A stretch of 64,000 nt of DNA from a virus. Taxonomy: Duplodnaviria; Heunggongvirae; Uroviricota; Caudoviricetes. The position numbers and the translations under genes were made by a program. The stretch lies in IMG/VR virus record IMGVR_UViG_3300031134_000466. The stretch is one strand, 5' to 3'. This document shows, piece after piece, positions 39,277 through 55,364 of this stretch. The notes beneath the pieces are model-generated. The model was not told where the DNA came from. It ran no database searches and saw only the letters and a list, made by a program, of their open reading frames with translations. Each line of letters begins with the position of its first letter. Position 1 is the first letter of the stretch.

Positions 39277-39277
39277 A

Positions 39278-39326: not shown

Positions 39327-39327
39327 T

Positions 39328-40449
39328 TCAGTCAGCAGTTTTTCCGTTCAAGTTCCAGAATGGCTTCTCAAACTCAGGCTGAATCATTTTCCAGATGATG
39401 TCAGAGATTTTCTTCTCAGACCTGGTATCAAAATGACCTCCGCTGTGACGAGAGAATAACAAACCAGTAATGCGTTTGTCTTCTTTCTGTACAGCTGCAG
39501 CGTAGTCCTTCTGAGTGTATCCTTCAGGAAGTTCAGAAAGAATACGGTTGTAAGTTTCCTCAACTGTTGCACGCAATTCAGCATGCTCTGCAAGTAGTCG
39601 GTCACGAGTTGTTTCGACATACTCAACGAACTCATCAGGGAGACCAACAATCCATGAAGTGAAGTCACCGTCAGCTACAAGCAGCTCCCAGATGCGACGC
39701 GAAGAAGCACCTGTGATGACACGGTGAAGCTGAACGTAGTCATCCTGTTTCACTTTCACTCGAACATCACTATCCAGGAAGTGAACAACAACGCCTTCTT
39801 TGTTCTCACGACCAGGAGCGGCCAAAGCTTCAGTAAGGCTGTTGTATTCAAACTGCTCAACCTTCAACCAAGTCCATTCATCAACCTGTGATGCTGGTAC
39901 AGAGCGACCTGTTGCTGTGTTCACTCGGGCAATCAAGATGAGGTCATCCAAATCACCGTAGTTAACAACGATACGGTTTGTAGGGTAGATGATTTCCCAG
40001 ATGTAAGTTTCACCAGCAAGTGGCTCCCATTTTCCGTCGTACAGCTCCTGGTAACGTGCTGTGGCATGCAGAGCCTGCTCAGAGCTGAATGAACCTCGTG
40101 TGGAGATGTTCAGTCGACCAGTTTCAGGGTTTACATATGAAACACCCATAGAACCATCTGCTTTGTCTGTGACAACGATAGGTCCAGTCAGTGCATCCTG
40201 AGGAACATCTGGTTCGCCGTGGTTAAAGAACTTACCAAGAGGGCGGGAGACAATCTCCTGGGTGGAACCGTCAACGATAAGTCCTCGTGAAGCTAATGTT
40301 GCAGCGTTCCAGGCTCGGTCAAACTGGCATACCTGTGAGTAGTCAAAGATAGCCAGGTCAAGCGTAGGGTGAACCTGACGATTGATGTGCTTGTTCTGGA
40401 ATTCAGCTGCCCAAAGTTCAGCAGGAGCGATATCGTAAATGTGTACCAT
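39328..40449 (-). CDS. ATP-dependent RNA ligase (Rnl family), paralog 1
   Basis: Nucleotidyltransferase motif I TDKADGSMG (KxDG), same order of downstream motifs as ORF 54122. Confidence 0.7.
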   Translation of the reverse strand: MVHIYDIAPAELWAAEFQNKHINRQVHPTLDLAIFDYSQVCQFDRAWNAATLASRGLIVDGSTQEIVSRPLGKFFNHGEPDVPQDALTGPIVVTDKADGSMGVSYVNPETGRLNISTRGSFSSEQALHATARYQELYDGKWEPLAGETYIWEIIYPTNRIVVNYGDLDDLILIARVNTATGRSVPASQVDEWTWLKVEQFEYNSLTEALAAPGRENKEGVVVHFLDSDVRVKVKQDDYVQLHRVITGASSRRIWELLVADGDFTSWIVGLPDEFVEYVETTRDRLLAEHAELRATVEETYNRILSELPEGYTQKDYAAAVQKEDKRITGLLFSRHSGGHFDTRSEKKISDIIWKMIQPEFEKPFWNLNGKTAD

Positions 40450-40536
40450 GATGGTTCTTTCGTTAGATCAGTATTTCATCAACGATAGCAGAAGACAGGT
40501 CTCCAAGTCAACTAATATGCATCCGATTGTTTAGAG

Positions 40537-40809
40537 ATGGATGTTAGAAGAATGAGCGTTACTGATTTAGTAGCGATTGTCGTGGCTGCGGGCAAAAAAC
40601 CTCGACATGCTCAAAATGTTTTGCTTCGTCATGTTGTTACTGAACAGGTTGCTGTTACTTCCGATCATTACATTGAAGACAGTGAAGGCTCAGTATCAAC
40701 AATGCTATTGTTCTTTTTTGCTAAGTATAAGATTGATTACGATAAGCTCATCGATCATCCGGAGTTGAGTTTCGAAATCAAACAAAGGCTTTATCAACTT
40801 ACGGTATAA
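40537..40809 (+). CDS. Hypothetical protein
   Basis: ORF only. Confidence 0.35.
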   Translation: MDVRRMSVTDLVAIVVAAGKKPRHAQNVLLRHVVTEQVAVTSDHYIEDSEGSVSTMLLFFFAKYKIDYDKLIDHPELSFEIKQRLYQLTV

Positions 40810-40813
40810 AAGA

Positions 40814-41173
40814 TTGGTTATGACGTTTATGAATACTACAACACTATGGCGCCCAGTAGGACCAAAAGAACTGGAACTAATAGCTCAGACTGGATTTACC
40901 CATTTCCCACCCAGATTACCAGAACAACCCATTTTTTATCCTGTGCTGAATCAGGAATACGCAGTAAAGATTGCTAAAGAATGGAACGTAAAACATGATG
41001 GTGCTGGTTATGTGAGCGAATTCCAAGTAGAAACCAGCTTTTTGTCTAATTACCCTATCCAGCAAGCTGGAGGTAGAACCATTCTCGAATATTGGATACC
41101 TGCAGAGGATTTAGATGCTTTCAACGATTCGATAGTGGGTATTATTAAAATCGTCAACACTTTTCTTTCTTGA
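40814..41173 (+). CDS. Hypothetical protein
   Basis: ORF only. Confidence 0.45.
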   Translation: MVMTFMNTTTLWRPVGPKELELIAQTGFTHFPPRLPEQPIFYPVLNQEYAVKIAKEWNVKHDGAGYVSEFQVETSFLSNYPIQQAGGRTILEYWIPAEDLDAFNDSIVGIIKIVNTFLS

Positions 41174-41178
41174 AACCT

Positions 41179-41213
41179 TTATGTTGTAGTTTTTTACAGA
41201 TACTACAACATAA
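41179..41213 (+). terminator. 12-bp AT-rich stem-loop
   Basis: ttatgttgtagt ... actacaacataa. Confidence 0.4.
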
Positions 41214-41293
41214 GGAACCGCCTAATTTGCTTGTCATTGAAATATAATGTAAGCTGGTGCTAACGTTCAAAATACGGAAAGATTACTGTTATT

Positions 41294-42706
41294 ATGCCAA
41301 TTGGTCAAAAAATTGTAGGAGTAGCTGTAGCAGCTACAGTTTCATTAAGTGCGGTAGCTTTTGTGGCTTCTCCAGCACTTGCTGATGAGGCAGCTCCTAC
41401 GACAACACAAGACGTTCCTACGGAAGTAGAAACTGGGACTGAGGGAGTTGCTCCAGCAGCTGACCCTGTTGAGGAAGAAGTACCTGCTCCTGAGGTTGCA
41501 GTACCAGAAGAGACTGAACCTGAAGTAGTTGTTCCATCTGAAGAAGCACCAGTAGAAGAAGTACCTACTGAAGAAGCACCTGTTGAAGAAGTTCCTGTCG
41601 AAGAGGTCCCTGCAGAGGAAAATGCTTTGGTAGCAACAACATTTGCTTTGACTTTTGGTGGTGACACATCAACTGTTCCTGAAAACCTGACACTTGAAGT
41701 TCACTATACTTCTTTGGTGAATGATGAAGTGCAGGATAATGTTGTTTACCTAACCCGCGATGTCCCTCCTACTGCCATTGACATCCCTGAAGGTTCTACA
41801 GTTCAGGTTTCAGTAACTGGTTTACCTGACATCGAAAACACAACACTAAACCCAGTTGTTCTGCTCAATGGGAATCCTTTGCCTGCTGATGGTGTTACAT
41901 TAGTGTCTGGTGAAGTGTATGATTTTTCTGTAGCTATTGATGCAGTAACAGAAAACCCTGCACCTTCAGACGCTCCTGCTATTCAGCAGGATGAAGCTCT
42001 TCCTGTTGATGTAGAAAACCTTATTTCTGTAAATGCTGCAGTTGCTTTCCCTGGTGACACTATAACTGTTTCTGCTTCAAGCGTTGCTACTCCTGAATCT
42101 TGGGTTTCAGTATGGCTTCATTCCACTCCTGTGCTTCTCGCTGGTTGGGTTCAGACTGACGTGAATGGAAACATTGATGTCACAATTCCAGCAGGTACCG
42201 AAACTGGTGAACACCGTATTGTTGTGTCTGACGCAGACAACAACATTGTAGGTTGGACAAGCATTCTTGTTGTCAACCAGGATGATGAAGTTATCGTTCC
42301 TGGAGAAGACCCTGAAACCCCTGTAGACCCTGAAACGCCTACAGACCCTACCCTTCCTGTGGACCCTACAACTCCTACTGACCCAGAAGTGCCAGTTACT
42401 CCTACAAACCCAGATGCAGGAGTAACTCCTGAGACTGAACCAGAAACAACTCCTCGTGACCCTTCTTCTGGCGGAGTATCCATCATTCCTGAGGAAGAGT
42501 TCAACACTGGAGGTTACGACAATGATGAGTTGGGTAACGTAACAGACCGTGGTGACCGCTCAGACATTAACACCAGAGCTTTGGCTTACACTGGTTCTGA
42601 CTCCAACTCCACGGTGTTCCTCACCTTCATGGGTGGTCTCATGTTGATTGGTGGTTTCGTCCTCCGCAGACTTCCTCGTCTGCGTGCTGCACGTCGCAAT
42701 AGCTGA
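41294..42706 (+). CDS. Cell-wall-anchored surface protein with LAxTG sorting signal and acidic Pro/Glu/Val repeats
   Basis: Signal peptide; EEAPVEEVPTEEAPVEEVPVEEVPAEE repeats; DPxTPTDP repeats; C-terminal LAYTG + hydrophobic segment + RRLPRLRAARRNS tail. Confidence 0.75.
   Translation: MPIGQKIVGVAVAATVSLSAVAFVASPALADEAAPTTTQDVPTEVETGTEGVAPAADPVEEEVPAPEVAVPEETEPEVVVPSEEAPVEEVPTEEAPVEEVPVEEVPAEENALVATTFALTFGGDTSTVPENLTLEVHYTSLVNDEVQDNVVYLTRDVPPTAIDIPEGSTVQVSVTGLPDIENTTLNPVVLLNGNPLPADGVTLVSGEVYDFSVAIDAVTENPAPSDAPAIQQDEALPVDVENLISVNAAVAFPGDTITVSASSVATPESWVSVWLHSTPVLLAGWVQTDVNGNIDVTIPAGTETGEHRIVVSDADNNIVGWTSILVVNQDDEVIVPGEDPETPVDPETPTDPTLPVDPTTPTDPEVPVTPTNPDAGVTPETEPETTPRDPSSGGVSIIPEEEFNTGGYDNDELGNVTDRGDRSDINTRALAYTGSDSNSTVFLTFMGGLMLIGGFVLRRLPRLRAARRNS
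41527..41625 (+). repeat. Imperfect ~30-nt tandem repeats encoding (E/V)E(A/V)P(V/T)EE
   Basis: gaagaagcaccagtagaagaagtacctact / gaagaagcacctgttgaagaagttcctgtc / gaagaggtccctgcagaggaa. Confidence 0.5.
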
Positions 42707-42720
42707 GAATAGCAAATAAG

Positions 42721-42751
42721 AAAAACCTGAGTCACCACGACTCAGGTTTTT
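42721..42751 (+). terminator. 13-bp stem-loop followed by T-rich tract
   Basis: aaaaacctgagtc accacg gactcaggttttt cttattt. Confidence 0.55.
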
Positions 42752-42761
42752 CTTATTTAAT

Positions 42762-42790
42762 TTGTCTTATCCCCCAAAATGGTGTACTAT
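42762..42790 (+). promoter_or_regulatory. Candidate promoter TTGTCT-17-TACTAT upstream of dnaK, containing the TTATCCCCC motif
   Basis: ttgtct tatcccccaaaatggtg tactat; about 35-nt leader with AAAGAAAGGG RBS. Confidence 0.3.
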
Positions 42791-42792
42791 GA

Positions 42793-44685
<1,893 letters not shown>

Positions 44686-44697
44686 TTTCTGAGATAC

Positions 44698-44741
44698 TCT
44701 GAAAGGGACGCTACTGTGATAATGGTAGCGTCCCTTTCAGA
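44698..44741 (+). terminator. 17-bp perfect stem-loop after dnaK
   Basis: tctgaaagggacgctac ... gtagcgtccctttcaga. Confidence 0.5.
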
Positions 44742-44761
44742 TTGCATTTAAACGATAAAGT

Positions 44762-44795
44762 AGAAAGGCCCTGACTAAAGAGTCAGGGCCTTTCT
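44762..44795. terminator. Second 15-bp stem-loop between dnaK and convergent gene
   Basis: agaaaggccctgact aaag agtcagggcctttct. Confidence 0.45.
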
Positions 44796-44797
44796 AC

Positions 44798-45427
44798 TTA
44801 GTTCTTTTTAGCTATGTATTCCCAGGTGATGATACCTTTTTCACAAGTCAGAACATAATGGCTATTGTACCATTCTCCACCTGCGTTGTAGTTATATTCA
44901 TGATAACCAGTTGTGTATCCTTTTGCTACCCATGTGTCTGCAGATGGAGGAACATCTTGATGAGGTCGAGCGTCAGAAGGCTGGAAGCTTTGTACCTGAT
45001 TGATTCGTAACTTCAATTCCTTATGAAGTTCTTCGAACTTGATAGCGACAGACTTACGTCCCTGTTCATCTTCATTCACATACAGAGAAGTATCACTTTC
45101 GTTCCAACCATTGCTGTCACCTAACATGCTCAGGCGGTAAGAAATAACCACAGTAACCTGAAGTTCTGCTCCTGTGCGTTGAGCTTCAAAGATTTCATCT
45201 AAAGTCAATGCAGTGACTACTCGTGTAGCTTCAGGAACTGGGATAAGCTTAGCCCATTCGCCATGAGCGTAATGAGCAAGTTCTCTTTTAGGTAATGTGC
45301 CGAGGACATCAGCTATTTTAGCTGGTCGTTTGTTCGTTTCTTTAGCCATTAGGTGTTTCAACCATTCTGTCTTGGTATCCAAGTATATCAAACAAATTAG
45401 GTAAAAGGCATAAATAGTGTGGAACAA
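44798..45427 (-). CDS. Hypothetical protein
   Basis: ORF begins with TTG; internal ATG at 45349 (MAKETNK...) may be the true start. Confidence 0.4.
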   Translation of the reverse strand: MFHTIYAFYLICLIYLDTKTEWLKHLMAKETNKRPAKIADVLGTLPKRELAHYAHGEWAKLIPVPEATRVVTALTLDEIFEAQRTGAELQVTVVISYRLSMLGDSNGWNESDTSLYVNEDEQGRKSVAIKFEELHKELKLRINQVQSFQPSDARPHQDVPPSADTWVAKGYTTGYHEYNYNAGGEWYNSHYVLTCEKGIITWEYIAKKN

Positions 45428-45511
45428 AGAAATGGCATAGTTCGGCCTGGGTCATCACCATTGTGTTACAATTGACCTGTACAACACCAATAAAGCGTAA
45501 CAGGAGTTACC

Positions 45512-46171
45512 ATGGACAACATTAAAGTAGAAGCTAACGGTAAATGGGTCAAGCTGGTAGAAAAAGCAGCATATGATGCACCTCCTACGTGGCATTTGGA
45601 AACCCCAGAGGGCGAGTTCCATATTTCTGTACCTATGCAGTCCACTCAGTTTGAATTGGTAAAACAATACCAGCGTGTATATGACAGTCAGAAAGATATA
45701 GGAATTCCTATTGCTGACGACTTAATGGTTGAGTTAGTTGAATCCGACTGGGGTTTTGTCGGTAACGAAGATGATGTATGGAAGTTCATCTTTACTTCTG
45801 TTGGTTATGACCAGAAGAATCTGATTGAGGACAAAGCAGAGCTGAAAGAACTGGTTCAGGATGCAGCTGAGCAGTTAGAAATCCTCAAACATGATGTTGA
45901 AGCCTCTGCTATCAGCTTCGACCCTGAAGTTGACACTAACACTGGCGATTTCTTTGAGTTTACATCTGCAACATTGAGTGATATGACAAAGCTACTTGCT
46001 GAAACTAAAAAGTCTTTGAAGCGTTACAAGGTACTTTTAGAAGCAGCTGAAAGATGGGTAGCTAAAGAATCGATGGGCCTGAACTGGACTAACGAGACAT
46101 TCCTTAGTAACTATGGTGAAACTCCTGAAGCTAAAAGGCTAATGGCTACGTACGAAGCACACCAAAAGTAG
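45512..46171 (+). CDS. Hypothetical acidic protein
   Basis: ORF with AGGAG RBS 8 nt upstream. Confidence 0.5.
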   Translation: MDNIKVEANGKWVKLVEKAAYDAPPTWHLETPEGEFHISVPMQSTQFELVKQYQRVYDSQKDIGIPIADDLMVELVESDWGFVGNEDDVWKFIFTSVGYDQKNLIEDKAELKELVQDAAEQLEILKHDVEASAISFDPEVDTNTGDFFEFTSATLSDMTKLLAETKKSLKRYKVLLEAAERWVAKESMGLNWTNETFLSNYGETPEAKRLMATYEAHQK

Positions 46172-46365
46172 CGAACAACATACCAAAAAGTTGTCAGAGT
46201 GGAGTAAAGATGGTAGACTTGTCTCAGTTGGCGATAACAGTCGCCCGTCTCAAGTGGTTACTCCTACGCGGTTTCGCTGTTGAGAGCAAGGTCCCGAGGA
46301 TTCTGTTATCTCACCATCATTCTATTTGACGGTTGAGCGTAGGTTGACTGTCAGAAAATAGGTAA

Positions 46366-47154
46366 ATGATGACTACAAACAGTTTCCAGAAAAAAGCCAT
46401 TCGTGAACGAATGAAGCACACTGGTGAACCGTACCTCGAAGCTTCCCGCCAGCTTTATGGAACCTCTGACAAGTTTCCTACTCCATGGTCTGAACTCAAT
46501 AAAGTTTTGGACGGTGGACTAAGAAAAGGTTCAGTTACTCTTCTTGGCTCTGGACCAGGAGGAGGTGCCACAAGCACAGCTATCAGCATCGCAGAAGGTG
46601 CTAAAAATAAGAGAGCTTTGTATGTTTCCTCGGAAATCTATGGACAAGAATTTCGCACTTTGGACAGTAAGCGGGATGATGATTCTTCTGACCTTATTTT
46701 CATCTACATCGGGCGAGAACAGTTTGGTAACTTAGTCGGCTCTTTGAAAGGGATGGTGTCATCAGTACATGACATCAAAGATGAACCTGATGTCGAGCTT
46801 ATTGTTATTGACTCTTTCGACTTTCTGACTCCTGAACTGCCTACGGTCCAAGAAGCAGCTGCTATGTCTGCTCAAATTAAGAAAATGGCTATCGAGCTTA
46901 ACCTTCCAGTAGTTCTTCTTACTCATTTGAGTACACAATCTGCACACGAAAAAAACCACTTCAGACATTCTTCTGATTTGGTCCAAGACTCTGATGTAAT
47001 ACTCACCTCTCATGTTGAAGGAGAGGGTGTCAACTTAGTTGTTCGCAAAAACAGATTCGGGGACTACGGTCAAAAGATTGCTTTAGATTGGGACAAAAAG
47101 AACTGCTTAATGACATCGAAAAAGTCTACTAATAACTCCTCAGAAACCAACTGA
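46366..47154 (+). CDS. DnaB-helicase C-terminal-domain-like (RecA-fold) protein with degenerate Walker A
   Basis: LNKVLDGGLRKGSVTLLGSGPGGGATS (Walker A without Lys), Walker B ELIVIDSFDFL, LPVVLLTHLS, and DnaB hallmark VVRKNRFGDYGQKIALDWD; no N-terminal DnaB domain. Confidence 0.55.
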   Translation: MMTTNSFQKKAIRERMKHTGEPYLEASRQLYGTSDKFPTPWSELNKVLDGGLRKGSVTLLGSGPGGGATSTAISIAEGAKNKRALYVSSEIYGQEFRTLDSKRDDDSSDLIFIYIGREQFGNLVGSLKGMVSSVHDIKDEPDVELIVIDSFDFLTPELPTVQEAAAMSAQIKKMAIELNLPVVLLTHLSTQSAHEKNHFRHSSDLVQDSDVILTSHVEGEGVNLVVRKNRFGDYGQKIALDWDKKNCLMTSKKSTNNSSETN

Positions 47155-47248
47155 CGTTAGATATAGTAGTGCAGGTAAAACTGTGTTATCTAACTCCTTT
47201 ATTGCGCCGCCTTCTCACTGAGGCGGCGCAATTGGTTAAATTGCCGAC

Positions 47249-47668
47249 ATGAAGAAAACAAGCTATAATCATTGCATGCTCCCTGAAGGTATAATCACCC
47301 ATCGTAAGATCATTCAACTGCAATTTACTGATATTGCAGGCGATAATTACAGTATTGCTCAAATGGATGACAGCAATGCAGCTGTTGGACATTGCGAAGA
47401 TGTTTCCAGAACCATTCTCAACTCAGGTCTTCTTGAAAATGCTGAGTTAGTAAGTGTCGAAGCTCTCACAGGGAGTGAAGTCTGGTGGCATGTAGCGGTA
47501 GGTATCACTGATCCTGTTTCAGAAGAGCTCACAGTGTACGACTACACTGCACGTCAATTCAGTGCTAATTTGCCTTTCCCTTTAATTCAGCATTATGACA
47601 CATGGGTAAACACCATTGAAACACACGCTAAGAAAGGAACGCTGGCTTTCAGCGAACTCGTATGGTAA
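47249..47668 (+). CDS. Hypothetical protein
   Basis: ORF only. Confidence 0.4.
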   Translation: MKKTSYNHCMLPEGIITHRKIIQLQFTDIAGDNYSIAQMDDSNAAVGHCEDVSRTILNSGLLENAELVSVEALTGSEVWWHVAVGITDPVSEELTVYDYTARQFSANLPFPLIQHYDTWVNTIETHAKKGTLAFSELVW

Positions 47669-48114
47669 ACATGACCCCAACACTTGACTTGAAAGAAAGT
47701 TTCACAGTCCAACGCTTCTACTCTGAGCTGAAAAGGCTAATCAGTTCTTTGGAAGCTGGCACACCAGTTACTGATGACGAGCGTATTTGGCTTATCGTGT
47801 TGAATGCAGGACTTGATAACTTCCAAGGCAGTTTCTATGCAGCAGAAGAACCTCAGCCAGACACTGTAGAAAACTGGTTACTTTTTGCGAACAACATTCA
47901 GATTAGCTTGTACGCATTATCCGATGAACAAGGATGGTTCTTCTTTAGAACAGGAACTCCAGGTGCAACGGTAAAAGAACTGCTCAAGTCTGAAGTGTCA
48001 TCCAACCTTCTTTCATCTACTGATTGGGATGCTTTGGTGTCCCAGCTGGAGAATGATGAGAGTAACGAAATGTTTATCGATGGCGAAGTGTACGTTTGTA
48101 ACGTGCGGTTCTAA
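47662..48114 (+). CDS. Hypothetical protein
   Basis: ORF; 7-nt overlap with upstream ORF. Confidence 0.4.
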   Translation: MVNMTPTLDLKESFTVQRFYSELKRLISSLEAGTPVTDDERIWLIVLNAGLDNFQGSFYAAEEPQPDTVENWLLFANNIQISLYALSDEQGWFFFRTGTPGATVKELLKSEVSSNLLSSTDWDALVSQLENDESNEMFIDGEVYVCNVRF

Positions 48115-48133
48115 GAATCCGATATAGGTCGAC

Positions 48134-48655
48134 ATGAATAAACTTGTAGTTGCCTGTGATGGTTCATGCCTAAAAAATCCAGGCGGCGCAATTGGATGGT
48201 CCTGGGCGGACAGCAAAGGACGCTGGCAAGCAAACGGTTTACCCACCGGGACAAACCAGGTAGCTGAACTTATTGGGTTATTGTCTGTCCTTTACGCTTT
48301 TCCTAATACAGACCTTCACATCAAAATTGACTCACGTTACGCTATGGACATCTCAACCAAATGGATGTTTACCTGGAAGAAGAATGGTTGGTGGCGTGAC
48401 ACTCAGCAGACAAAAGCAGTTAGCAACCTCACCCACGTGAAAGCTCTTTATGAAGCTCTTCGAATTAGAAAAAAGAAGAACCTTGTAACAACATTCGAAT
48501 GGGTGAAAGGCCATGCTTCTGACACTTTGAACAACAAAGCCGACAAAGAAGCTCAAGCAGCTGCCAGGCGAGTCAAAGCCGGCAAACTAGCGTATGCTGA
48601 CTCAGCAAAGAACACAACTTCTGAACGACAAACAAGAATGTTAGAAACCCTGTGA
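48134..48655 (+). CDS. rnhA: Ribonuclease HI
   Basis: DEDD catalytic set in RNase H order: VACDGSC..NPG.GG, NQVAEL, IKIDSRY, KGHASDTLNNKADKEA. Confidence 0.85.
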   Translation: MNKLVVACDGSCLKNPGGAIGWSWADSKGRWQANGLPTGTNQVAELIGLLSVLYAFPNTDLHIKIDSRYAMDISTKWMFTWKKNGWWRDTQQTKAVSNLTHVKALYEALRIRKKKNLVTTFEWVKGHASDTLNNKADKEAQAAARRVKAGKLAYADSAKNTTSERQTRMLETL

Positions 48656-49461
48656 CTCTCACTATTGCTTCATACAACATCCAAGTGCCTGCCGCTAAAG
48701 CTGAATTCCATGGCTGGGAGGGGAGGAAAGAAGAACTGTTGGCAACGTTGCCAACTTTAGGTGATCTGTTTGGTTTACAAGAAGTTTCATACGTAGATAC
48801 TCAAGGGTCAGAGGTTTCAACCCAGCTACGTAACAACGGATTTGATGGTTATGAACCTTCACATAACGACTTTAGCGAATATGATGACGAATTCCATCAG
48901 AGAAATCCTATCTTCTGGAAAGCTGACAAATTTGAACTCAAACAAAGCCATGTAAGGCTACTCACTACAGGAACTGTCGAAGAGCAGCAAGAGCTTCCCA
49001 ATATTGAAAACAGATACAGCACTCACGTATTGCTGGAGCATGTTTCAGGTGATTTGATCCATTTCTTCAACCTTCACCAGCAGCATGTTCCCATTGAACT
49101 AACAGATGAAGAACTCATTGCCAAATATGCAGCGGTGCAGGTAAAAGGTCTGATAGCTTTGCACGAATTTGCTCAGGAAGTCAACCCAGAAAATAATCCT
49201 GCAATCATTGTTGGAGATTTCAACTCTGTTTCCCCAACTGTCATGGGGTTCACCTGTGCCAAGAAAGCCGCTAACGAAAACGTGAATGGCCAGTACAACA
49301 GCTACCACGGCTATGTAGAAGAAACGGCTGCTAACGGTGACTACATAATTGACCATATACTGTCAAATTTCCCAGCTGGTGACATTCTTCGCACTGAGAC
49401 TTTGATAGAAGACAAAGGCAGCGACCATTACCCTCTGCAAGCATCATTCAAACACTGCTGA
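48652..49461 (+). CDS. Endonuclease/exonuclease/phosphatase (EEP) family protein
   Basis: TIASYNIQ N-terminus, GDFNS, SDHYPL motifs; 4-nt overlap with rnhA. Confidence 0.7.
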   Translation: MTLTIASYNIQVPAAKAEFHGWEGRKEELLATLPTLGDLFGLQEVSYVDTQGSEVSTQLRNNGFDGYEPSHNDFSEYDDEFHQRNPIFWKADKFELKQSHVRLLTTGTVEEQQELPNIENRYSTHVLLEHVSGDLIHFFNLHQQHVPIELTDEELIAKYAAVQVKGLIALHEFAQEVNPENNPAIIVGDFNSVSPTVMGFTCAKKAANENVNGQYNSYHGYVEETAANGDYIIDHILSNFPAGDILRTETLIEDKGSDHYPLQASFKHC

Positions 49462-49519
49462 CGATAGTAAAAAATAGACTTCCGGTAGACTTGAACTCTG
49501 CCTAACCAGATTTGGAACC

Positions 49520-50176
49520 ATGAGAATAGTAGTAGCTGATTGTTCAGTCATTTACACAGGAAGAGGAGACACCCGTCTTCCCCGAGCAGTCCGAGCGATC
49601 ATTGTCAAAGATGATGGTTCAATCTCAGTGCATAACGACAAAAGTAACAAACCTTTGAACTATATGGGTAAAGGTAACGAGCTTTCAGAAGTTGAGCTGG
49701 AAGATTGTAAACTATGGTTCTTTGACACAAGGCAAGAAAGTCTCCGCATTACTTTACATGAAGTTATTTCTGACACTGATTTCCTCCTTGATCGAAACGA
49801 TGAAGGACTGATCCGTGACGGCACAGAGAAGCAGCTGCAGGCTTGGTTAGCAGAGAACCCAGAAGCATTAGGTGAAGGCTATACTTTCGTTCAAAGAGAA
49901 TATCAGACAGGTGCAGGAGCTGTTGATTTGTTAGTCACTGACCCTGAAGGTAACCCTGTGGCGGTAGAAGTGAAACGAGTGGCCATGATTAACAGTGTGA
50001 GCCAGACACAACGTTATGTTGAGTCGATGAAAGAGGACCCTGAGTTTGCCAATACCACTGGCATTATCGCCGCTTTAGACATTCGACCTAACACTGTGAA
50101 GTTAGCGGACAAAAAGAAAATCCGCTGTGTCACTTTACCAACATGGTGGCGTGACCCAGCGGATACTTCAATGTAA
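49520..50176 (+). CDS. NucS/EndoMS-like PD-(D/E)xK nuclease
   Basis: N-terminal beta-rich region then GAVDLLVTDPEGNPVAVEVKR (D...EVK) C-terminal RecB-like core. Confidence 0.5.
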   Translation: MRIVVADCSVIYTGRGDTRLPRAVRAIIVKDDGSISVHNDKSNKPLNYMGKGNELSEVELEDCKLWFFDTRQESLRITLHEVISDTDFLLDRNDEGLIRDGTEKQLQAWLAENPEALGEGYTFVQREYQTGAGAVDLLVTDPEGNPVAVEVKRVAMINSVSQTQRYVESMKEDPEFANTTGIIAALDIRPNTVKLADKKKIRCVTLPTWWRDPADTSM

Positions 50177-50177
50177 T

Positions 50178-50666
50178 TCAGCCGTCAAACTTTTCGACAT
50201 CTTGAGGTGCTACACGGTAAGCGTATTCTGTTTTTGCTGACAGGTAGTACACGTACAGCTTGTCAGTTTTGTCAGTACTGGTTTCCAGAATGTAATTACG
50301 TTTTGCATCTTCATCCAAGAACCCGTTCTGATTGTGAAGCATCTCAAGCGATTCTTCTTTTGTAAGGCCAAGATAAGAGTAGTTCTTGTCAAACCATTTC
50401 AAATAGCTTTTTTCTGAAATAGCTACTTTCTGTTGGGGCTGGAAGAATGAAATGTGCCAGAAGCTGAAACCGGCAGCTCCTACAAGAAGGAGAGTGAATA
50501 GCCAGGTCAGGATAACAGGAAGTTGCCTGATGGCAGGGATAATCATGCCCAGGATGAGTAACCCTGCTGGGATGAGGAGGAACCAGAAGTTGAAGTTCTC
50601 ATACCCAGATAGATCATGAGGAGGCAACCAACCAGTGAGGTCTTCCAGTGTGATGTCGTTGGGCAT
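50178..50666 (-). CDS. Membrane protein (3 TM), unknown
   Basis: Hydrophobic helices in N-terminal half. Confidence 0.45.
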   Translation of the reverse strand: MPNDITLEDLTGWLPPHDLSGYENFNFWFLLIPAGLLILGMIIPAIRQLPVILTWLFTLLLVGAAGFSFWHISFFQPQQKVAISEKSYLKWFDKNYSYLGLTKEESLEMLHNQNGFLDEDAKRNYILETSTDKTDKLYVYYLSAKTEYAYRVAPQDVEKFDG

Positions 50667-50800
50667 GATTCTAATGTTCCTTAATCGTTGTCAGCTTTAT
50701 GAGCGGTCAAAGAATTCTATCATCAACGGCTAAAGCACATAGTATTTGACAGCTGGCTGGGTTTCATGGTAAGTTGGAGTATCTTAAGTTAGGAAACAAA

Positions 50801-51706
50801 ATGTCACAGATAATGCGGATTCACCGTGGAGTGCAAGGCTCTGGTAAATCCACAGAAGCCATCCGTTGGGTGAACCAGGACCCGTTAAACCGTGCCCGTG
50901 TGAACCGTGATGACATTCGTCTCAGCCAGTTCGGCTCCTACGAGCTTCCTCAGGAACTCGAAGTTGCTGTTACCAAAGTAGAGCATGCCATCATCACCGC
51001 ACTTCTTGCTGCACGCAAAAGTGTTGTTGTTGACAATGTGAACCTGAAAGCCAAGTACGTTAAAGAGTACCTGCTTATTGCGGAGAAAGCCAACGTACCT
51101 GTTGTGCATCAGGACTTCCCTGTGGAGTTGGAGACAGCTCTTGCTCGTAACGCTGCTCGTGACCGTAAAGTCCCTGCACATGTGATTGAGACAACATTCA
51201 AGCGTTACATTCAGAGTGGCAAGTTCCCTCCGTTCCCCGTACTTGACTACGAAGCCGCTGCAGCAGGAATCTATGTTCCTGATGAGACTCTGCCTAAAGC
51301 TATCCTTTTGGATGTTGACGGCACAGCCATGAAGATGGGTTCACATCGTGGACCGTTTGACTGGCACAAAGTCATTGATGACGAGCCTAACCCGCCTGTT
51401 GTTGAAACAGTAAAAGCTTTGCATGCTCAGGGCTACAAAGTTGTTGTCATGTCTGGTCGTGATGAAGTCTGCAAAACAGACACGTTACTTTCTCTGGAAG
51501 TAGCTGGTGTTCCTGTGGATGAAATCTACATGAGACCCCACAACGATTACCGTAAAGACAACATCATCAAGCGTGAACTTTTTGATGCTCACATTCGGGA
51601 GCGTTTCAACATCCTGTTAGCTTTGGATGACCGGAACCAGGTTGTGGACGCTTACCGTCGTGAGCTGGGTCTTCCTGTCTTTCAGGTTGACTACGGAGAC
51701 TTCTAA
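50801..51706 (+). CDS. Polynucleotide 5'-kinase/3'-phosphatase (T4 Pnkp architecture)
   Basis: N-terminal P-loop GVQGSGKST and kinase core, C-terminal HAD phosphatase LLDVDGT ... MSGRDE ... LDDRNQ; ATG 50801 with AGGAAA RBS. Confidence 0.8.
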   Translation: MSQIMRIHRGVQGSGKSTEAIRWVNQDPLNRARVNRDDIRLSQFGSYELPQELEVAVTKVEHAIITALLAARKSVVVDNVNLKAKYVKEYLLIAEKANVPVVHQDFPVELETALARNAARDRKVPAHVIETTFKRYIQSGKFPPFPVLDYEAAAAGIYVPDETLPKAILLDVDGTAMKMGSHRGPFDWHKVIDDEPNPPVVETVKALHAQGYKVVVMSGRDEVCKTDTLLSLEVAGVPVDEIYMRPHNDYRKDNIIKRELFDAHIRERFNILLALDDRNQVVDAYRRELGLPVFQVDYGDF

Positions 51707-51717
51707 GTCAGCATGAG

Positions 51718-51752
51718 TAAAGCCCCGAATCGTAACTTGATTCGGGGCTTTA
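51718..51752. terminator. 14-bp stem-loop between convergent genes
   Basis: taaagccccgaatc ... gattcggggcttta. Confidence 0.5.
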
Positions 51753-51757
51753 CCTGT

Positions 51758-52729
51758 TTAAATTTCTCGCAGCTGCACAATTGTCAGTTCAGTTGCTTCA
51801 CCTTTTTTATTGACCCTTTTGACTTTCACATCATTAGCAACAACTTCGAATTTTGCACCACGAGGAATGATGAACTCATACTCTCTTGGACCTTGCGATG
51901 AAATAGCTGTGATTGGGGCTCCACTTTTTGTAAGAATCTGTAAAGAAACATTGATGTTGTCTTTGGAAGGTAAATCTTGAGGATTCAAACTTGTCGATAA
52001 GAAGAATTTAGGTTCGTAAGTGCTACCAACAGGGAAATGTTTGTCGAGGTTTTGAGCGTCATCACTTGAATGATATCCTTTTTCATCATAAAGATGATGA
52101 CGGCGGTAAACCATCACGCCTTCTTCTGCTGGTTCGTGTTTAGCAAAAGCATCATCCAGGATAGTTACAGCTGCATCCAACGTTTCAGGTGCAACATTTT
52201 TTGCGTACGGATTTGTTGAAGCTGAAAGATGGCCGTTGATGTCAGCATAGCCATCTTCTGAATACCAGCGAAGAGTAGCTATTTCAGTATCATCCAGTTT
52301 GGCACTCCAGTTTTGGGAATCTGCCATGCTGTTCAACAGGTCAGCATGTTTGTAATGCATCTCTTCAAGAGTGTCACCAGTTTCGAAAAACGTCGGAGAA
52401 GTGTAAGCAGCTTTTTGTGCTTTTTTGTGGGTGATGACTTTACGATCCGCAACAGCAGCTAATCTTCTGGCTCGTTCTTGAGAAAGCGCTTCGTATTCTT
52501 CTGCATGCCATTCCTGCGTTGGATTCTTTTTGATCTGTCTTTCCAAAGACTTTAGATAAGCTGGTGTTAGTTTGTACTCTGCTTCAGCTTTTCTTCTTAC
52601 CGCTATTAGCTTCTCAAGCTCTGGGTCTTTGCGGTTGTCCATGAAAGCACTGAGAACCGCTTGATGAGCTTTAGCGTAGGTGGCTGCAGCATGAGCTGAA
52701 CAACGGGGACCAGGTTTTGGGTAACACAT
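51758..52729 (-). CDS. Mono-ADP-ribosyltransferase (R-S-E class) with N-terminal MCYPKPGPRCSAHA module
   Basis: Arg motif MVYRRH, classic STS motif FLSTSLN, catalytic PREYEFIIPRGAKFEVV (E-x-E); N-terminal 100 aa paralogous to ORF 30500. Confidence 0.7.
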   Translation of the reverse strand: MCYPKPGPRCSAHAAATYAKAHQAVLSAFMDNRKDPELEKLIAVRRKAEAEYKLTPAYLKSLERQIKKNPTQEWHAEEYEALSQERARRLAAVADRKVITHKKAQKAAYTSPTFFETGDTLEEMHYKHADLLNSMADSQNWSAKLDDTEIATLRWYSEDGYADINGHLSASTNPYAKNVAPETLDAAVTILDDAFAKHEPAEEGVMVYRRHHLYDEKGYHSSDDAQNLDKHFPVGSTYEPKFFLSTSLNPQDLPSKDNINVSLQILTKSGAPITAISSQGPREYEFIIPRGAKFEVVANDVKVKRVNKKGEATELTIVQLREI

Positions 52730-52811
52730 GCTCCATTTCTAACAGCTTGACATCCCATCATTTATCCGATACTGTTGTTACTATACGAACCGAATAGCAG
52801 ATTGAGGTTAT

Positions 52812-53015
52812 ATGCCTGGAATGATGGCTTCCAACAAGAACCGTGCCGTGAACAACGTTGACAGCACTATGTTCGATGATGGTTTCTGGCAGCACCGACA
52901 CTTCAAAGGTAAGCGTCGCACTGGAGCTGCAACTGGTGGTCGCGGTTGGCGTCGAGCTCTTCGCAAGAAGGAGAAGCAGAGCGTCAAAAAGGACATCCGT
53001 AACGACGAAATGTGA
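52812..53015 (+). CDS. Small highly basic protein (67 aa)
   Basis: Lys/Arg-rich (GKRRTGAATGGRGWRRALRKKEKQ); followed directly by a terminator hairpin; alternative antisense ORF exists. Confidence 0.3.
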   Translation: MPGMMASNKNRAVNNVDSTMFDDGFWQHRHFKGKRRTGAATGGRGWRRALRKKEKQSVKKDIRNDEM

Positions 53016-53021
53016 ACTGTA

Positions 53022-53065
53022 AATAGGGTCAAAATCCTGATAAACTCAAGGATTTTGACCCTATT
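53022..53065 (+). terminator. 16-bp stem-loop followed by T-tract
   Basis: aatagggtcaaaatcc ... ggattttgaccctatt ttgtt. Confidence 0.5.
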
Positions 53066-53146
53066 TTGTTGCTGGATACCGTGTTCTGTGGTAGACTTGA
53101 GTAACATACAACGCAGCATCACACAGTTCACTGAAAGGGTTCCATT

Positions 53147-54028
53147 ATGACTACAAATTTAGGTTTCAGAGCTGAGGTCTCATACGACGCAGTGAAAGAT
53201 TTGACTCTCATGAGTTCATCATCTTCAGACTTCTCTTCTCCTCTTAACTTTGCCCTCACACGAGGTTCTGACGAGGACAAAGCCGTCAGGGCTCTCCTCG
53301 AAGACCAGGGACGAGTAGAATTCGTCAAGTCAGCGGTTTCTTTGAACAACCTTTCCCAGGTAGGTTCTTTCGGTGTTAGAACAGACGGTAATCCTTCCCG
53401 AGCTGACCTGGGTGTTCACAAGAACCTCACTATCGCAGGTAAAGATGGTTCAGGTGTTCTGAACTTCGTCAGAAACTATCTTCTTTGGGCTTACGCTACA
53501 AACACTCGAATCTATGCTGTGAACGCTCCAGCTGACATGTACGGTGCTGTGAATTACTTGCGTACTGACAAACTGGTTCGTATCGACTCAGGAGATGAGC
53601 CGAACATTGATTCCATCTGGAGTCAGTACGATGCTGATGTTGCTGCTGGTCGTCCTGTGCTTGTGTTGGTGAACAGCATTGGTGATATCGAAGACCAGGA
53701 TGAGGTGGTTGCAAGTTTCCTTGCCCATGTTGACACACGCAAGTTCGAAGTTTACGCTCTTTCTTTCTCAACATTCCAGGAAGAGCTTCCAGAAGACACT
53801 CATTACGAGAACTTCTTCTGGCGAGTTGGTGTTGACGCTGAGCACACTACAGGTTTCATTGGTGACACTCTTCCTGAGATTGCATCTTACATGATGAAAG
53901 AACATGTAGGAATTCCTCATGAGAACCCTCGTGGCGTGCTGTGGTTAAACAGAAATGCTGAGCGTTACGAACGAGTTATCACCTATGTGGTGCCTCGTCG
54001 TTTCTGGGAAGACAGCCTGAACTTCTGA
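53147..54028 (+). CDS. Hypothetical protein
   Basis: ORF only. Confidence 0.5.
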   Translation: MTTNLGFRAEVSYDAVKDLTLMSSSSSDFSSPLNFALTRGSDEDKAVRALLEDQGRVEFVKSAVSLNNLSQVGSFGVRTDGNPSRADLGVHKNLTIAGKDGSGVLNFVRNYLLWAYATNTRIYAVNAPADMYGAVNYLRTDKLVRIDSGDEPNIDSIWSQYDADVAAGRPVLVLVNSIGDIEDQDEVVASFLAHVDTRKFEVYALSFSTFQEELPEDTHYENFFWRVGVDAEHTTGFIGDTLPEIASYMMKEHVGIPHENPRGVLWLNRNAERYERVITYVVPRRFWEDSLNF

Positions 54029-54037
54029 TTTCAGACA

Positions 54038-54080
54038 ATTGAGGGACCTGTGCTTGTAATTAAAGTGCAGGTCCCTCAAT
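54038..54080 (+). terminator. 13-bp stem-loop followed by T5 (intrinsic terminator)
   Basis: attgagggacctg ... caggtccctcaat tttttg. Confidence 0.55.
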
Positions 54081-54121
54081 TTTTTGTATTCTGCTGTCTG
54101 TTTCTTTGTTAGTAATAGGGC

Positions 54122-55363: not shown

Positions 55364-55364
55364 T

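What the first reader, a model, noticed from the sequence alone, without database searches (positions are those of the whole stretch)
46366..47154. DnaB C-terminal-domain-like protein lacking the Walker A lysine and the N-terminal helicase domain
The DnaB hallmarks are present: LDGGLRKGSVTLLGSG, Walker B LIVIDSFDFL, and the KNRFG.YGQ.I.LDWD tail. The P-loop, however, reads GSGPGGGATS with no Lys/Thr pair, and the protein has only 262 aa. Such a protein could not hydrolyse ATP normally. It might co-assemble with and poison or redirect the host replicative helicase, acting as a DnaB mimic or loader.
Basis: partly seen in the sequence, partly recalled or inferred. Interest (0 to 1): 0.5.

Follow-up and report, generated by a model that had tools for sequence, protein, structure and literature searches.

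The report
ATPase-dead DnaB-like protein, swappable core
This is a real, selectively maintained gene of a huge (about 0.8 Mb) phage-like element that encodes the motor domain of a DnaB-type replicative helicase whose own ATP site is disabled, so it most likely works by binding DNA or a helicase partner and not by unwinding.

Summary
ORF 46366-47154 (+) encodes a 262-aa DnaB/RadA-type RecA core with no DnaB N-terminal domain. The Walker A lysine is Ala68, but the following Thr69 is kept. The H3 sensor Gln is also lost. Walker B Asp149, Glu90 and the KNRFG motif, which acts on the neighbouring subunit, are intact.

The gene is not a pseudogene: dN/dS is 0.09, in the lysine-less core as well.

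It belongs to a previously undescribed family in which a portable ~30-aa two-helix N-terminal peptide replaces the DnaB collar domain. 13 of 27 family representatives have lost the lysine, in at least six different ways, while K-N-R-x-G is kept. All 126 other DnaB-type hits (mostly full-length) keep the lysine.

In two separate lineages of 0.7-0.8 Mb elements, genomes 93-98% identical over ~20 kb show no DNA similarity across this gene's core. Synonymous sites are saturated too, so whole core cassettes have been exchanged by recombination.

The best reading is a non-hydrolysing oligomeric subunit that binds DNA or a helicase partner, a natural counterpart of the RadA K101A mutant. Poisoning of the host DnaB is possible but untested.

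Verdict: a new variant of a known kind. Interest 0.5.

The parts
46366..47154 (+). Complete gene: 262-aa N-peptide plus DnaB/RadA-type RecA-core protein, stop codon included
   Evidence: ORF. DnaB_C 3.6e-14, PHROG 19 3e-22. AF2 model pLDDT 77.7, pTM 0.78. Foldseek to DnaB 1e-15. dN/dS 0.09.
46366..46470 (+). Portable N-terminal module (aa 1-35; helices 4-19 and 23-31): MMTTNSFQKKAIRERMKHTGEPYLEASRQL
   Evidence: It holds most of the invariant family columns: M2, T3, K9, R13, M16, A26. It is predicted as a helical hairpin. The same peptide is fused to unrelated domains and occurs as free-standing ORFs. No Pfam model covers it.
46546..46575 (+). Degenerate Walker A / P-loop GSGPGGGATS (aa 61-70). 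Ala68 (46567-46569) replaces the lysine; Thr69 is retained.
   Evidence: Alignment to RadA GGDPGIGKST. Motif table over 153 sequences.
46633..46635 (+). Glu90, at the position of the catalytic glutamate (S-x-E)
   Evidence: Nearly invariant in A3.
46798..46827 (+). Walker B LIVIDSFDFL (aa 145-154); Asp149 at 46810-46812
   Evidence: Asp149 is invariant in A3 and at least 90% conserved in A1.
46912..46944 (+). H3 region VLLTHLSTQSA (aa 183-193). The sensor Gln of DnaB (SQLNR) is His187.
   Evidence: the Gln is kept in 120/126 other DnaBs but in only 3/13 lysine-less family members.
47047..47061 (+). KNRFG (aa 228-232): trans-acting Lys 'piston' and Arg finger / DNA-sensor motif, fully retained
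   Evidence: K228 is invariant; N229, R230 and G232 are at least 90% conserved in the family. In lysine-less members they are kept in 13/13, 11/13 and 13/13. The role in RadA is from PMC5512693.
46593..46966 (+). Divergence island (exchangeable core cassette): no nucleotide similarity to the allele in L001, although the flanks are 93% identical. At the protein level divergence already starts at the P-loop (aa 61, nt 46546).
   Evidence: blastn. Codon analysis. Repeated with L021 against L001, and in a second lineage with L013 against L016.

Best explanation
The gene encodes a non-catalytic ('pseudo-helicase') member of the DnaB/RadA branch of the RecA superfamily. A short, portable two-helix N-terminal module replaces the DnaB collar domain. 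The protein's own nucleotide site is disabled (Walker A Lys to Ala, H3 sensor Gln to His). The fold, the Walker B Asp and the KNRFG loop are kept under purifying selection; in RadA/DnaB that loop reaches into the neighbouring subunit's ATP site and is needed for ssDNA binding. The protein most likely assembles into a DnaB-like oligomer. That oligomer would be either a homo-oligomer or a mixed ring with a catalytically competent DnaB-type partner, which could be an element-encoded paralogue or the host helicase. It would then act by binding, not by translocating: holding ssDNA or a fork, or donating its Lys/Arg fingers to a partner's site, and so loading, capping or restraining a helicase. The N-terminal module probably targets it to a common partner or site. 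The core is exchanged between related genomes as a cassette. SHOWN: the gene is real and under purifying selection; the fold; which motifs are lost and which kept; repeated lysine loss across the family; the cassette mosaic; the portability of the N-peptide. INFERRED: lack of ATP hydrolysis (about 0.8); oligomerisation and DNA or partner binding (about 0.5); the identity of the partner (open).
For: Identity and fold. Cis-acting site disabled: Ala68 and His187. Selection: dN/dS 0.09 overall and 0.09 within the lysine-less core, comparable to neighbouring genes (0.02-0.15); Ala68 appears in four assemblies and the divergent allele has Gly. Family pattern: in 27 N-peptide family representatives, 13 lack the lysine (A, G, S, R, T, E or a deletion), and Fitch parsimony on a rough tree needs at least 8 changes. 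In those 13 the cis elements decay together (H3 Gln 3/13, DNA-loop Arg 5/13, Glu 8/13), while K228, R230 and G232 persist (13/13, 11/13, 13/13). All 126 other DnaB-type hits keep the lysine. Experimental analogue: the RadA Walker A K101A mutant still forms hexamers and binds DNA like wild type but has no ATPase or helicase activity, whereas KNRFG mutants K251A and R253A lose ssDNA binding; K251 and R253 act on the neighbouring protomer (PMC5512693). Partner idea: related elements have an intact paralogue (GGWKS, Asp, KNRxG) directly followed by a degenerate one.
Against: No biochemistry was done, and no multimer model could be run. No full-length DnaB or intact paralogue lies in the 64-kb window, and the rest of the ~0.8 Mb genome could not be read, so a partner is hypothetical. 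Thr69, Glu90 and Asp149 are retained, so nucleotide binding, or even weak hydrolysis, cannot be excluded. Retention of KNRFG fits two different roles (trans-acting finger or DNA binding) that cannot be told apart here. The function of the N-peptide is unknown. The strong cassette divergence suggests a conflict-type or specificity interaction that this explanation does not itself predict.
Confidence: 0.5

Rival explanations
1. Host-helicase mimic. The protein inserts into, or caps, the host DnaB hexamer through CTD-CTD contacts. It thereby poisons host replication, or opens the ring as a loader, for the benefit of the element.
For: It has a DnaB-type CTD fold with intact trans-acting KNRFG and a dead cis site. 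There is no NTD, so a mixed ring would lack a complete collar. No helicase gene is seen in the window.
Against: The N-terminal segment is a portable module found on unrelated proteins, not a DnaB linker helix. The core, which would form the interface, is only ~30-35% identical between alleles in otherwise 93-98% identical genomes, which is hard to reconcile with fitting one conserved host protein. An element-encoded intact paralogue exists next to a degenerate one in relatives. The host is unknown.
Confidence: 0.15
2. ATP-independent DNA-structure-processing protein, like mycobacteriophage D29 Gp65. Gp65 is a free-standing RecA-core protein reported to be a fork-specific nuclease that does not need ATP.
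For: Same superfamily and the same single-domain architecture in actinophage-type elements (PMC4523182). hhalign probability 95% between the family profile and Gp65. The neighbourhood is rich in nucleic-acid repair genes: RNase H, an EEP nuclease, NucS, PNKP and ligases.
Against: There is no BLASTP similarity to Gp65 (E = 11). Gp65 keeps GKS and lacks the N-peptide. No nuclease motif was identified. Neighbourhoods differ between family members, so the context argument is weak.
Confidence: 0.15
3. Conflict protein. The protein is a decoy for, a target of, or an inhibitor of a host defence or a competing element, and the exchangeable core is its specificity determinant under diversifying or frequency-dependent selection.
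For: Divergence islands confined to this gene in two independent lineages, with allele type uncoupled from background divergence. The constant-N, variable-C architecture recalls polymorphic effector systems. The surrounding region is full of ADP-ribosyltransferases, PARP and RNA-repair genes typical of conflict loci.
Against: No match to any PADLOC defence model. Within an allele, selection is strongly purifying. The mosaic could simply reflect recombination seeded by the conserved N-terminal coding sequence.
Confidence: 0.12
4. Still an active ATPase or helicase that uses a non-canonical P-loop, analogous to minimal helicases such as RSF1010 RepA or the N-terminally truncated Wildcat Gp80.
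For: Thr69, Glu90, Asp149 and the Arg finger are retained. RecA-core-only helicase activity has a precedent (PMC4523182).
Against: K-to-A in the same motif abolished activity in Wildcat Gp80 K201A and in RadA K101A. The H3 Gln is also lost, and the DNA-loop Arg is not conserved between alleles. No compensating lysine exists.
Confidence: 0.06
5. Decaying remnant of a helicase gene with no function.
For: Catalytic motifs are lost. Many family members are degenerate.
Against: dN/dS is 0.09 in every segment of the gene. The ORF is intact in at least 5 assemblies and in two deeply divergent alleles. The N-peptide and KNRFG are invariant.
Confidence: 0.02

Closest known systems
DnaB-family replicative helicase, C-terminal RecA domain (Pfam PF03796; structures 2r6a, 4esv, 2q6t)
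   Same: Fold and motif order: (P-loop)-SxE-Walker B-H3-(R)xSxxxxQDxD-KxRxG. It is the best sequence and fold match.
   Different: No N-terminal collar domain (PF00772). Walker A Lys to Ala and H3 Gln to His. It scores 42-57 bits against NCBIfam DnaB models whose cut-offs are 385-499. It carries a portable 30-aa N-terminal module instead.
RadA/Sms branch-migration helicase, and specifically its engineered Walker A mutant K101A (PMC5512693)
   Same: Exact KNRFG motif. It is the best single PDB sequence hit (5lkm, 5e-6) and the best core superposition (8rxc, 2.9 A over 226 columns). K101A shows the expected phenotype of such a protein: a hexamer that binds DNA without ATPase or helicase activity.
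   Different: No C4 zinc finger and no Lon-like P domain. TIGR00416 scores 36 bits against a cut-off of 403. Here the loss of the lysine is natural and evolutionarily maintained.
D29 Gp65-type free-standing RecA-core proteins of actinophages (PMC4523182)
   Same: A single-domain DnaB-related RecA core in phage-like elements of Actinobacteria. An ATP-independent activity has been reported.
   Different: No pairwise similarity. Gp65 keeps GKS and has no N-peptide. The relationship is at superfamily level only.
Non-catalytic RecA-family paralogues that work in hetero-oligomers (RAD51 paralogue complexes BCDX2/CX3; archaeal RadB)
   Same: A RecA core with auxiliary, partly ATPase-compromised subunits acting alongside an active relative. 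RAD51D and RAD51B appear among the sequence and fold hits. An active/degenerate gene pair is seen in relatives.
   Different: They belong to a different branch of the superfamily (recombinase, not SF4 helicase). Hetero-oligomerisation here is only inferred.
RSF1010 RepA and N-terminally truncated Wildcat Gp80 (minimal DnaB-like helicases)
   Same: A RecA core with only a ~30-aa N-terminal segment (as described in PMC4523182).
   Different: Those proteins are active and depend on the Walker A lysine (K201A is inactive).

Membership tests
DnaB replicative helicase (TIGR00665 / PF00772 + PF03796) | C-terminal RecA-type helicase domain PF03796 | tested here: met
   53.2 bits against a cut-off of 27, E 3.6e-14. 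Foldseek to DnaB 1e-15.
DnaB replicative helicase (TIGR00665 / PF00772 + PF03796) | N-terminal collar / primase-binding domain PF00772 | tested here: not met
   No PF00772 hit. Only 35 aa precede the core. The ORF cannot be extended. The upstream ORF has no Pfam or PHROG hit.
DnaB replicative helicase (TIGR00665 / PF00772 + PF03796) | Walker A GxxxxGK[ST] lysine | tested here: not met
   Ala68. All 126 other DnaB-type hits have Lys.
DnaB replicative helicase (TIGR00665 / PF00772 + PF03796) | Walker B Asp, catalytic Glu, Arg finger (KxRxG) | tested here: met
   D149, E90, K228 and R230.
DnaB replicative helicase (TIGR00665 / PF00772 + PF03796) | H3 sensor Gln (SQLNR) | tested here: not met
   His187.
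DnaB replicative helicase (TIGR00665 / PF00772 + PF03796) | Curated equivalog score | tested here: not met
   TIGR00665: 41.7 bits against 385. TIGR03600 phage_DnaB: 57.1 against 499.
DnaB replicative helicase (TIGR00665 / PF00772 + PF03796) | ATP-driven 5'-3' unwinding as a hexamer | not testable with these tools
   Needs biochemistry.
RadA/Sms | KNRFG motif | tested here: met
   aa 228-232 read KNRFG exactly.
RadA/Sms | N-terminal C4 zinc finger and C-terminal Lon-like P domain | tested here: not met
   The protein ends 30 aa after KNRFG and has no Cys cluster. TIGR00416 scores 36 bits against 403, and the match covers only the ATPase region.
D29 Gp65-like RecA-core-only clade | Significant pairwise similarity to Gp65 (the paper's criterion is BLAST E < 0.001) | tested here: not met
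   BLASTP E = 11. Only profile-level similarity: hhalign 95%, E 1.8e-8.
D29 Gp65-like RecA-core-only clade | Fork-specific, ATP-independent nuclease activity | not testable with these tools
   Reported for Gp65.
N-peptide + DnaB_C-core family (defined here) | N-terminal MTxNxxxKxxIRxRMxxTGExYxxAxR module directly followed by (T)PWxxL(N/D)xxxxGG and a DnaB_C core of 240-290 aa ending in KNRxG | tested here: met
   All invariant columns are present: M2, T3, K9, R13, M16, A26, K228. The 26 other N-peptide family representatives aligned with the focal protein were among the hits of the exhaustive search.
Known anti-phage defence system components (PADLOC) | Match to any PADLOC model | tested here: not met
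   No hit at E <= 0.01 for the focal protein, its alleles or its neighbours.

The most novel reading that the evidence does not exclude
Huge (0.7-0.8 Mb) phage-like elements of Actinomycetota-type hosts carry a dedicated family of DnaB-derived pseudo-helicases. In this reading the subunits are tagged by a portable targeting peptide and have repeatedly given up their own ATP site while keeping the fingers that act on a neighbour. They would work as exchangeable, allele-specific regulatory subunits of a heteromeric ring helicase. This would be a prokaryotic-virus analogue of RAD51-paralogue or MCM-type division of labour, with the swappable core setting partner or self/non-self specificity between competing elements.
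Probability: 0.15. Interest if true: 0.8.

Novelty: new variant of a known kind. Interest (0 to 1): 0.5.

Why it matters
Hexameric SF4 helicases (DnaB, T7 gp4, RadA) are generally treated as homo-oligomers of six equivalent, active subunits.

A naturally occurring, selectively maintained DnaB-type subunit with a dead cis site but intact trans-acting fingers would be a useful natural experiment. It recurs many times within one family, and in some genomes it sits next to an intact paralogue. Such a protein could show how many active sites a ring helicase needs and how accessory subunits load, brake or cap it.

The cassette-like exchange of the core between nearly identical giant genomes marks this locus as a specificity or conflict determinant. 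The portable N-terminal peptide is widespread in Actinomycetota and their phages and has no family model. It is a candidate targeting or interaction tag that could be tested directly.

If the protein instead simply binds forks like RadA K101A, it is an ordinary accessory DNA-binding protein and of modest interest.

Tried and rejected
- Searches of the phage genome collection gave no DNA match for window 40-55 kb. At protein level there were only weak partial hits to DnaB-like genes, so there is no annotated close relative.
- The word-indexed protein search found only two orthologues. A family-profile search with the same tool returned mostly full-length DnaBs and missed the short family. The exhaustive HMMER search was needed to find it.
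- The search for related loci with the 22-sequence alignment failed because it had no sufficiently conserved stretch. It worked with an 8-sequence alignment.
That search returned only short proteins, so it does not sample fusions to long proteins.
- tblastn of six full-length DnaBs and of the focal protein against the window and L001 found no paralogue and no second helicase.
- The idea that the upstream 219-aa ORF is a split-off DnaB N-domain was rejected. It has no Pfam or PHROG hit, and the upstream gene is different in the second lineage.
- In-situ rapid evolution as the cause of the island was rejected. Codon identity at conserved residues falls to 0.25-0.56 in the core, against 0.83-0.93 in the N-terminus. 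Allele type is also uncoupled from background divergence.
- A DGR was not considered plausible, because the island contains indels and total divergence, not A-specific changes. No dedicated test was run.
- The context look-up for P0020, a full-length DnaB sharing the PTPWSxLN motif, gave only a 2.7-kb contig.
- The PADLOC scan was negative.
- The promoter/terminator scan around the gene gave no more sites than shuffled sequence.
- Model coordinates are not exposed, so 3D distances from other lysines to the P-loop could not be measured.
Full report
**1. The observation**

It matches Pfam DnaB_C (53.2 bits, cut-off 27, E 3.6e-14) and more weakly AAA_25 and KaiC. It also matches PHROG 19 'DnaB-like replicative helicase' (3e-22) and NCBIfam DnaB, phage_DnaB, RadA and RadB models, all far below their equivalog cut-offs. 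No DnaB N-terminal domain is detected.

In PDB sequence space the best hits are S. pneumoniae RadA (5lkm, 5e-6) and several DnaBs. The RadA alignment places GSGPGGGATS opposite GGDPGIGKST. The Walker A lysine is therefore Ala68, and the following Ser/Thr is retained as Thr69. A 153-sequence alignment gives the same register.

The correction is that only the Lys of the 'Lys/Thr pair' is missing. The addition is that the H3 sensor Gln is also lost (His187).

**2. Structure**

AlphaFold2, run on a 37-sequence alignment, gives pLDDT 77.7 and pTM 0.78. The model has an N-terminal helical hairpin (residues 4-19 and 23-31) followed by a RecA-type alpha/beta core. Foldseek against the PDB returns DnaB structures (2r6a, 4esv, 2q6t, 9dls) at about 1e-15 and RadA helicase 8rxc at 2.9 A over 226 columns. 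RAD51 paralogues and Dmc1 rank lower. In BFVD the best matches are phage DnaB-type helicases.

**3. Is the gene functional?**

A 95%-identical orthologue on an independent contig (L003) gives dS 0.267 and dN 0.024, so dN/dS is 0.09. The ratio is uniform across the gene: 0.10 for residues 2-60, 0.09 for the lysine-less core 61-200, and 0.08 for 201-262. Neighbouring genes lie in the same range, 0.02-0.15. Ala68 is present in the window, L003, L021 and L022. The gene is under strong purifying selection, and the pseudogene reading is rejected.

**4. The replicon**

The window has no close relative among deposited phages. The orthologues lie on metagenomic contigs of 776 kb (L001) and 789 kb (L021), with the same gene order. 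Other family members lie on contigs of 674, 698, 727 and 791 kb, with GC from 36 to 62%.

Genes recognised in the window:
- an SNF2 helicase, a YqaJ-RNase T fusion and an RNR small subunit;
- a dNMP-kinase/intein/C5-methylase ORF;
- a WGR-PARP, four candidate ADP-ribosyltransferases (one of them weak) and two NAD synthases;
- two Rnl1-type RNA ligases, PNKP, RNase H and NucS;
- a DnaK whose sequence looks actinobacterial (from my own knowledge of DnaK sequences);
- many ORFs with no family match.

No tRNA genes were found. This looks like the accessory region of a huge phage-like element of an Actinomycetota-type host. However, no structural genes were seen in the sequence available, so 'phage' is an inference. 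No full-length DnaB or paralogue of the focal gene lies in the 64 kb.

**5. The family**

An exhaustive HMMER search of 1.84 billion representatives found 1607 hits at E <= 1e-3. Most of the 150 best hits listed are ordinary full-length DnaBs matching only the core. The best hits after the orthologue are short proteins (240-290 aa) that align from residue 1. They share an N-terminal peptide, MT(K/T)Nx(3)Kx(2)IRxRMxxTGEPYSVAAR, followed by (T)PWxxL(N/D)xxxxGG and the core.

In a 22-sequence alignment the invariant columns are M2, T3, K9, R13, M16, A26 and K228. Columns N5, R15, T19, G20, E21, R28, G51, G67, D149, N229, R230 and G232 are at least 90% conserved. The family is thus defined by the N-peptide, the Walker B Asp and K-N-R-x-G, and not by the Walker A lysine.

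Motif retention by group:

| Motif | Lys-retaining family members (14) | Lys-less family members (13) | Other DnaB-type hits (126) |
|---|---|---|---|
| Walker A Lys | 14/14 | 0/13 | 126/126 |
| Walker A Ser/Thr | 11/14 | 8/13 | 125/126 |
| Catalytic Glu | 13/14 | 8/13 | 120/126 |
| Walker B Asp | 11/14 | 11/13 | 126/126 |
| H3 Gln | 9/14 | 3/13 | 120/126 |
| DNA-loop Arg | 9/14 | 5/13 | 116/126 |
| K228 | 14/14 | 13/13 | 124/126 |
| R230 | 12/14 | 11/13 | 120/126 |
| G232 | 12/14 | 13/13 | 110/126 |

The 13 lysine-less members carry A, G, S, R, T, E or a deletion at that position. Their cis-acting elements decay together, while the trans-acting K-N-R-x-G is retained.

A rough NJ tree puts the family in one clade apart from full-length DnaBs, and Fitch parsimony needs at least 8 changes of lysine status. 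The tree is poorly resolved, so that number is only indicative. Positional orthologues of one locus carry K (P0009), R (P0013), G (P0004) and S/G (P0005).

**6. A recombinational cassette**

blastn of L001 against the window aligns at 92.8% identity over L001 2-10227 (= window 36404-46592) and at 92.8% over L001 10614-19036 (= window 46967-55365). Nothing aligns in between. The gap, window 46593-46966, lies inside the focal gene, and protein divergence begins exactly at the P-loop (residue 61).

Among residues conserved between the two alleles, codon identity is 0.83-0.93 in residues 1-60 and only 0.25-0.56 in the core. Synonymous sites are therefore saturated too. This is replacement by a deeply divergent allele, not fast in-situ evolution.

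L021 carries allele A, like the window. It is 93.4% identical to the window straight through the gene. Against L001 (allele B) its flanks are 94-95% identical and the same ~360-nt gap appears. Allele type is thus uncoupled from background divergence.

The pattern repeats independently in a second lineage. L013 (P0004) and L016 (P0005) are 97-98% identical over ~20 kb, yet they share no nucleotide similarity from codon ~59 to the stop codon of this gene.

All four alleles lack the lysine. In the tree, the two alleles of each locus are each other's nearest relatives. The loss is therefore older than the allelic split, and it has been maintained.

**7. The N-terminal peptide is a portable module**

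Scans seeded with the peptide found it in the following settings:
- fused to unrelated C-terminal regions in Nocardia, Micromonosporaceae and Phytohabitans genomes;
- on T2SSF-like 151-165-aa proteins;
- on 176-aa Cys-rich proteins, one of them on the same 789-kb contig as the focal orthologue;
- on another P-loop protein.

A profile search also found 118 free-standing ORFs of 29-74 aa. Some sit in the early or replication region of a temperate-actinophage-like contig, beside HTH repressors, Prim-Pol and RusA. No Pfam model covers the peptide.

The peptide is therefore not a DnaB linker helix. It is most simply read as an autonomous two-helix interaction, targeting or nucleic-acid-binding module. 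Its function remains unknown.

**8. Comparison with known proteins**

Free-standing RecA-core DnaB relatives are known in actinophages. D29 Gp65 is reported as a fork-specific nuclease that acts without ATP. An N-terminally truncated Wildcat Gp80 retains helicase activity, which a Walker A K201A substitution abolishes (PMC4523182). The focal protein has no BLASTP similarity to Gp65 (E = 11), Gp65 keeps GKS and has no N-peptide, and the profile comparison shows only superfamily-level similarity. It is not a member of that clade.

The most useful experimental analogue is RadA (PMC5512693):
- K251 and R253 of its KNRFG motif are the 'piston' and arginine finger for the neighbouring protomer;
- the K251A and R253A mutants bind ssDNA only minimally;
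- the Walker A K101A mutant still forms hexamers and binds DNA like wild type, but has no ATPase or helicase activity;
- RadA binds DNA with higher affinity without ATP.

The focal protein is in effect a natural K-to-A variant with KNRFG preserved.

A comparative survey of jumbo phages describes divergent but active DnaBs and no inactive ones.

**9. Mechanism**

Putting these results together, the best-supported reading is a non-hydrolysing DnaB/RadA-type subunit that acts by binding. The strongest argument is the asymmetry in the family: cis-acting residues decay, while trans-acting and DNA-sensing residues persist under purifying selection. Two concrete versions fit the data:
- a homo-oligomer that holds ssDNA or forks without translocating, like RadA K101A;
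- a subunit that joins or caps a ring formed by a catalytically competent partner and donates K228/R230 to the partner's site.

The second version gains some support from L023/L024. There an intact paralogue (GGWKS, Asp, KNRxG; 371-374 aa) is immediately followed by a degenerate one (Walker B Asp to Asn, H3 Gln to Thr, KNR eroded).

Whether the partner is element-encoded or the host DnaB cannot be decided, because only 64 kb of a ~0.8 Mb genome could be read. The cassette exchange suggests that the core carries a specificity or conflict function. A PADLOC scan found no link to known defence systems.

My estimates for the steps:

| Step | Estimated probability |
|---|---|
| DnaB-type core lacking the NTD and the Walker A lysine | ~0.97 |
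| Functional gene | ~0.95 |
| No meaningful ATP hydrolysis | ~0.8 |
| Acts as an oligomeric DNA- or helicase-binding subunit | ~0.5 |
| Partner is specifically host DnaB | ~0.15 |

**10. Verdict**

The functional speculation is reasonable but untested, and it is not the only reading or the best-supported one.

The protein is a new variant of a known kind (free-standing DnaB/RecA-core proteins of actinophage-like elements). Three features appear to be undescribed:
- the portable N-terminal module;
- repeated, selectively maintained loss of the cis ATP site with the trans-acting motif retained;
- a recombinationally exchanged core cassette seen in two lineages of 0.7-0.8 Mb elements.

Interest is moderate (0.5). 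It would be high if the heteromeric-ring model were confirmed.

Noticed in passing
window 46366-46470; also L004 6931-7386, L005-L008 near 10001, L010 9739-9906, L027/L028/L038 at 4001, L029, L030, L033, L035-L037, L039: A ~30-aa N-terminal peptide, MT(K/R)(N/D)x(3)Kx(2)IRxRMxxTGEPYSVAAR, predicted as a helical hairpin, is a portable module with no Pfam model. It is fused to DnaB_C cores, Cys-rich 176-aa proteins, T2SSF-like proteins, another P-loop protein and assorted actinobacterial proteins. It also occurs as 118 free-standing 29-74-aa ORFs. Its function is unknown.
   Followed up: partly
whole window; L001, L013, L021, L024, L026, L038: The window is ~93% identical to part of a 789-kb metagenomic contig (Ga0308164_10000007). 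Relatives are contigs of 674-791 kb with GC of 36-62%, which suggests a clade of ~0.7-0.8 Mb phage-like elements with actinobacterial affinities. No capsid or terminase genes were seen in the sequence available, so what these elements are is unproven.
   Followed up: partly
L023 4001-6093 and L024 4001-6106: Tandem paralogues of the family: an apparently intact 371-374-aa protein (Walker A GGWKS, with a C-terminal extension) is immediately followed by a degenerate 255-260-aa paralogue (Walker B Asp to Asn, eroded KNR).
   Followed up: partly
window 18430-21147 (+): A single 905-aa ORF combines a dNMP-kinase-like N-terminus, a Hint/intein segment and a C5 cytosine DNA methyltransferase. This looks like an intein-interrupted or fused nucleotide-modification enzyme.
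   Followed up: no
window 26372-27676, 28539-29579, 30500-31465, 51758-52729 (-), 56409-57374, 62265-63158: A dense NAD+/ADP-ribosylation gene set: a WGR-domain PARP, three exoenzyme-type ADP-ribosyltransferases (one of them weak) and two NAD synthase genes.
   Followed up: no
window 39328-40449 (-), 50774-51706, 54122-55363: An RNA-repair set: two T4 Rnl1-type RNA ligases and a polynucleotide kinase-phosphatase. This suggests a counter-measure against tRNA/RNA-cleaving defences.
   Followed up: no
window 42826-44685 and 49520-50176: A full-length DnaK/HSP70 whose sequence looks actinobacterial (judged from memory, not tested) and a NucS/EndoMS mismatch endonuclease. Both are unusual cargo for a phage-like element.
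   Followed up: no
window 14395-16512 (-): A 705-aa fusion of a YqaJ/RecE-like recombination exonuclease with an RNase T / DnaQ-like 3'-5' exonuclease domain.
   Followed up: no
window 42714-42754, 44695-44744, 44758-44799: Short intergenic sequences flanking dnaK also match the related contig L001 in inverted orientation (88-98% identity). They are therefore near-palindromic and may be bidirectional terminators or a repeated regulatory element.
   Followed up: no
window 2847-4235 (+) and 8246-8998 (-): A DUF285 (Mycoplasma-type leucine-rich repeat) protein and a TerF-like vWA protein, neither of them usual phage genes.
   Followed up: no
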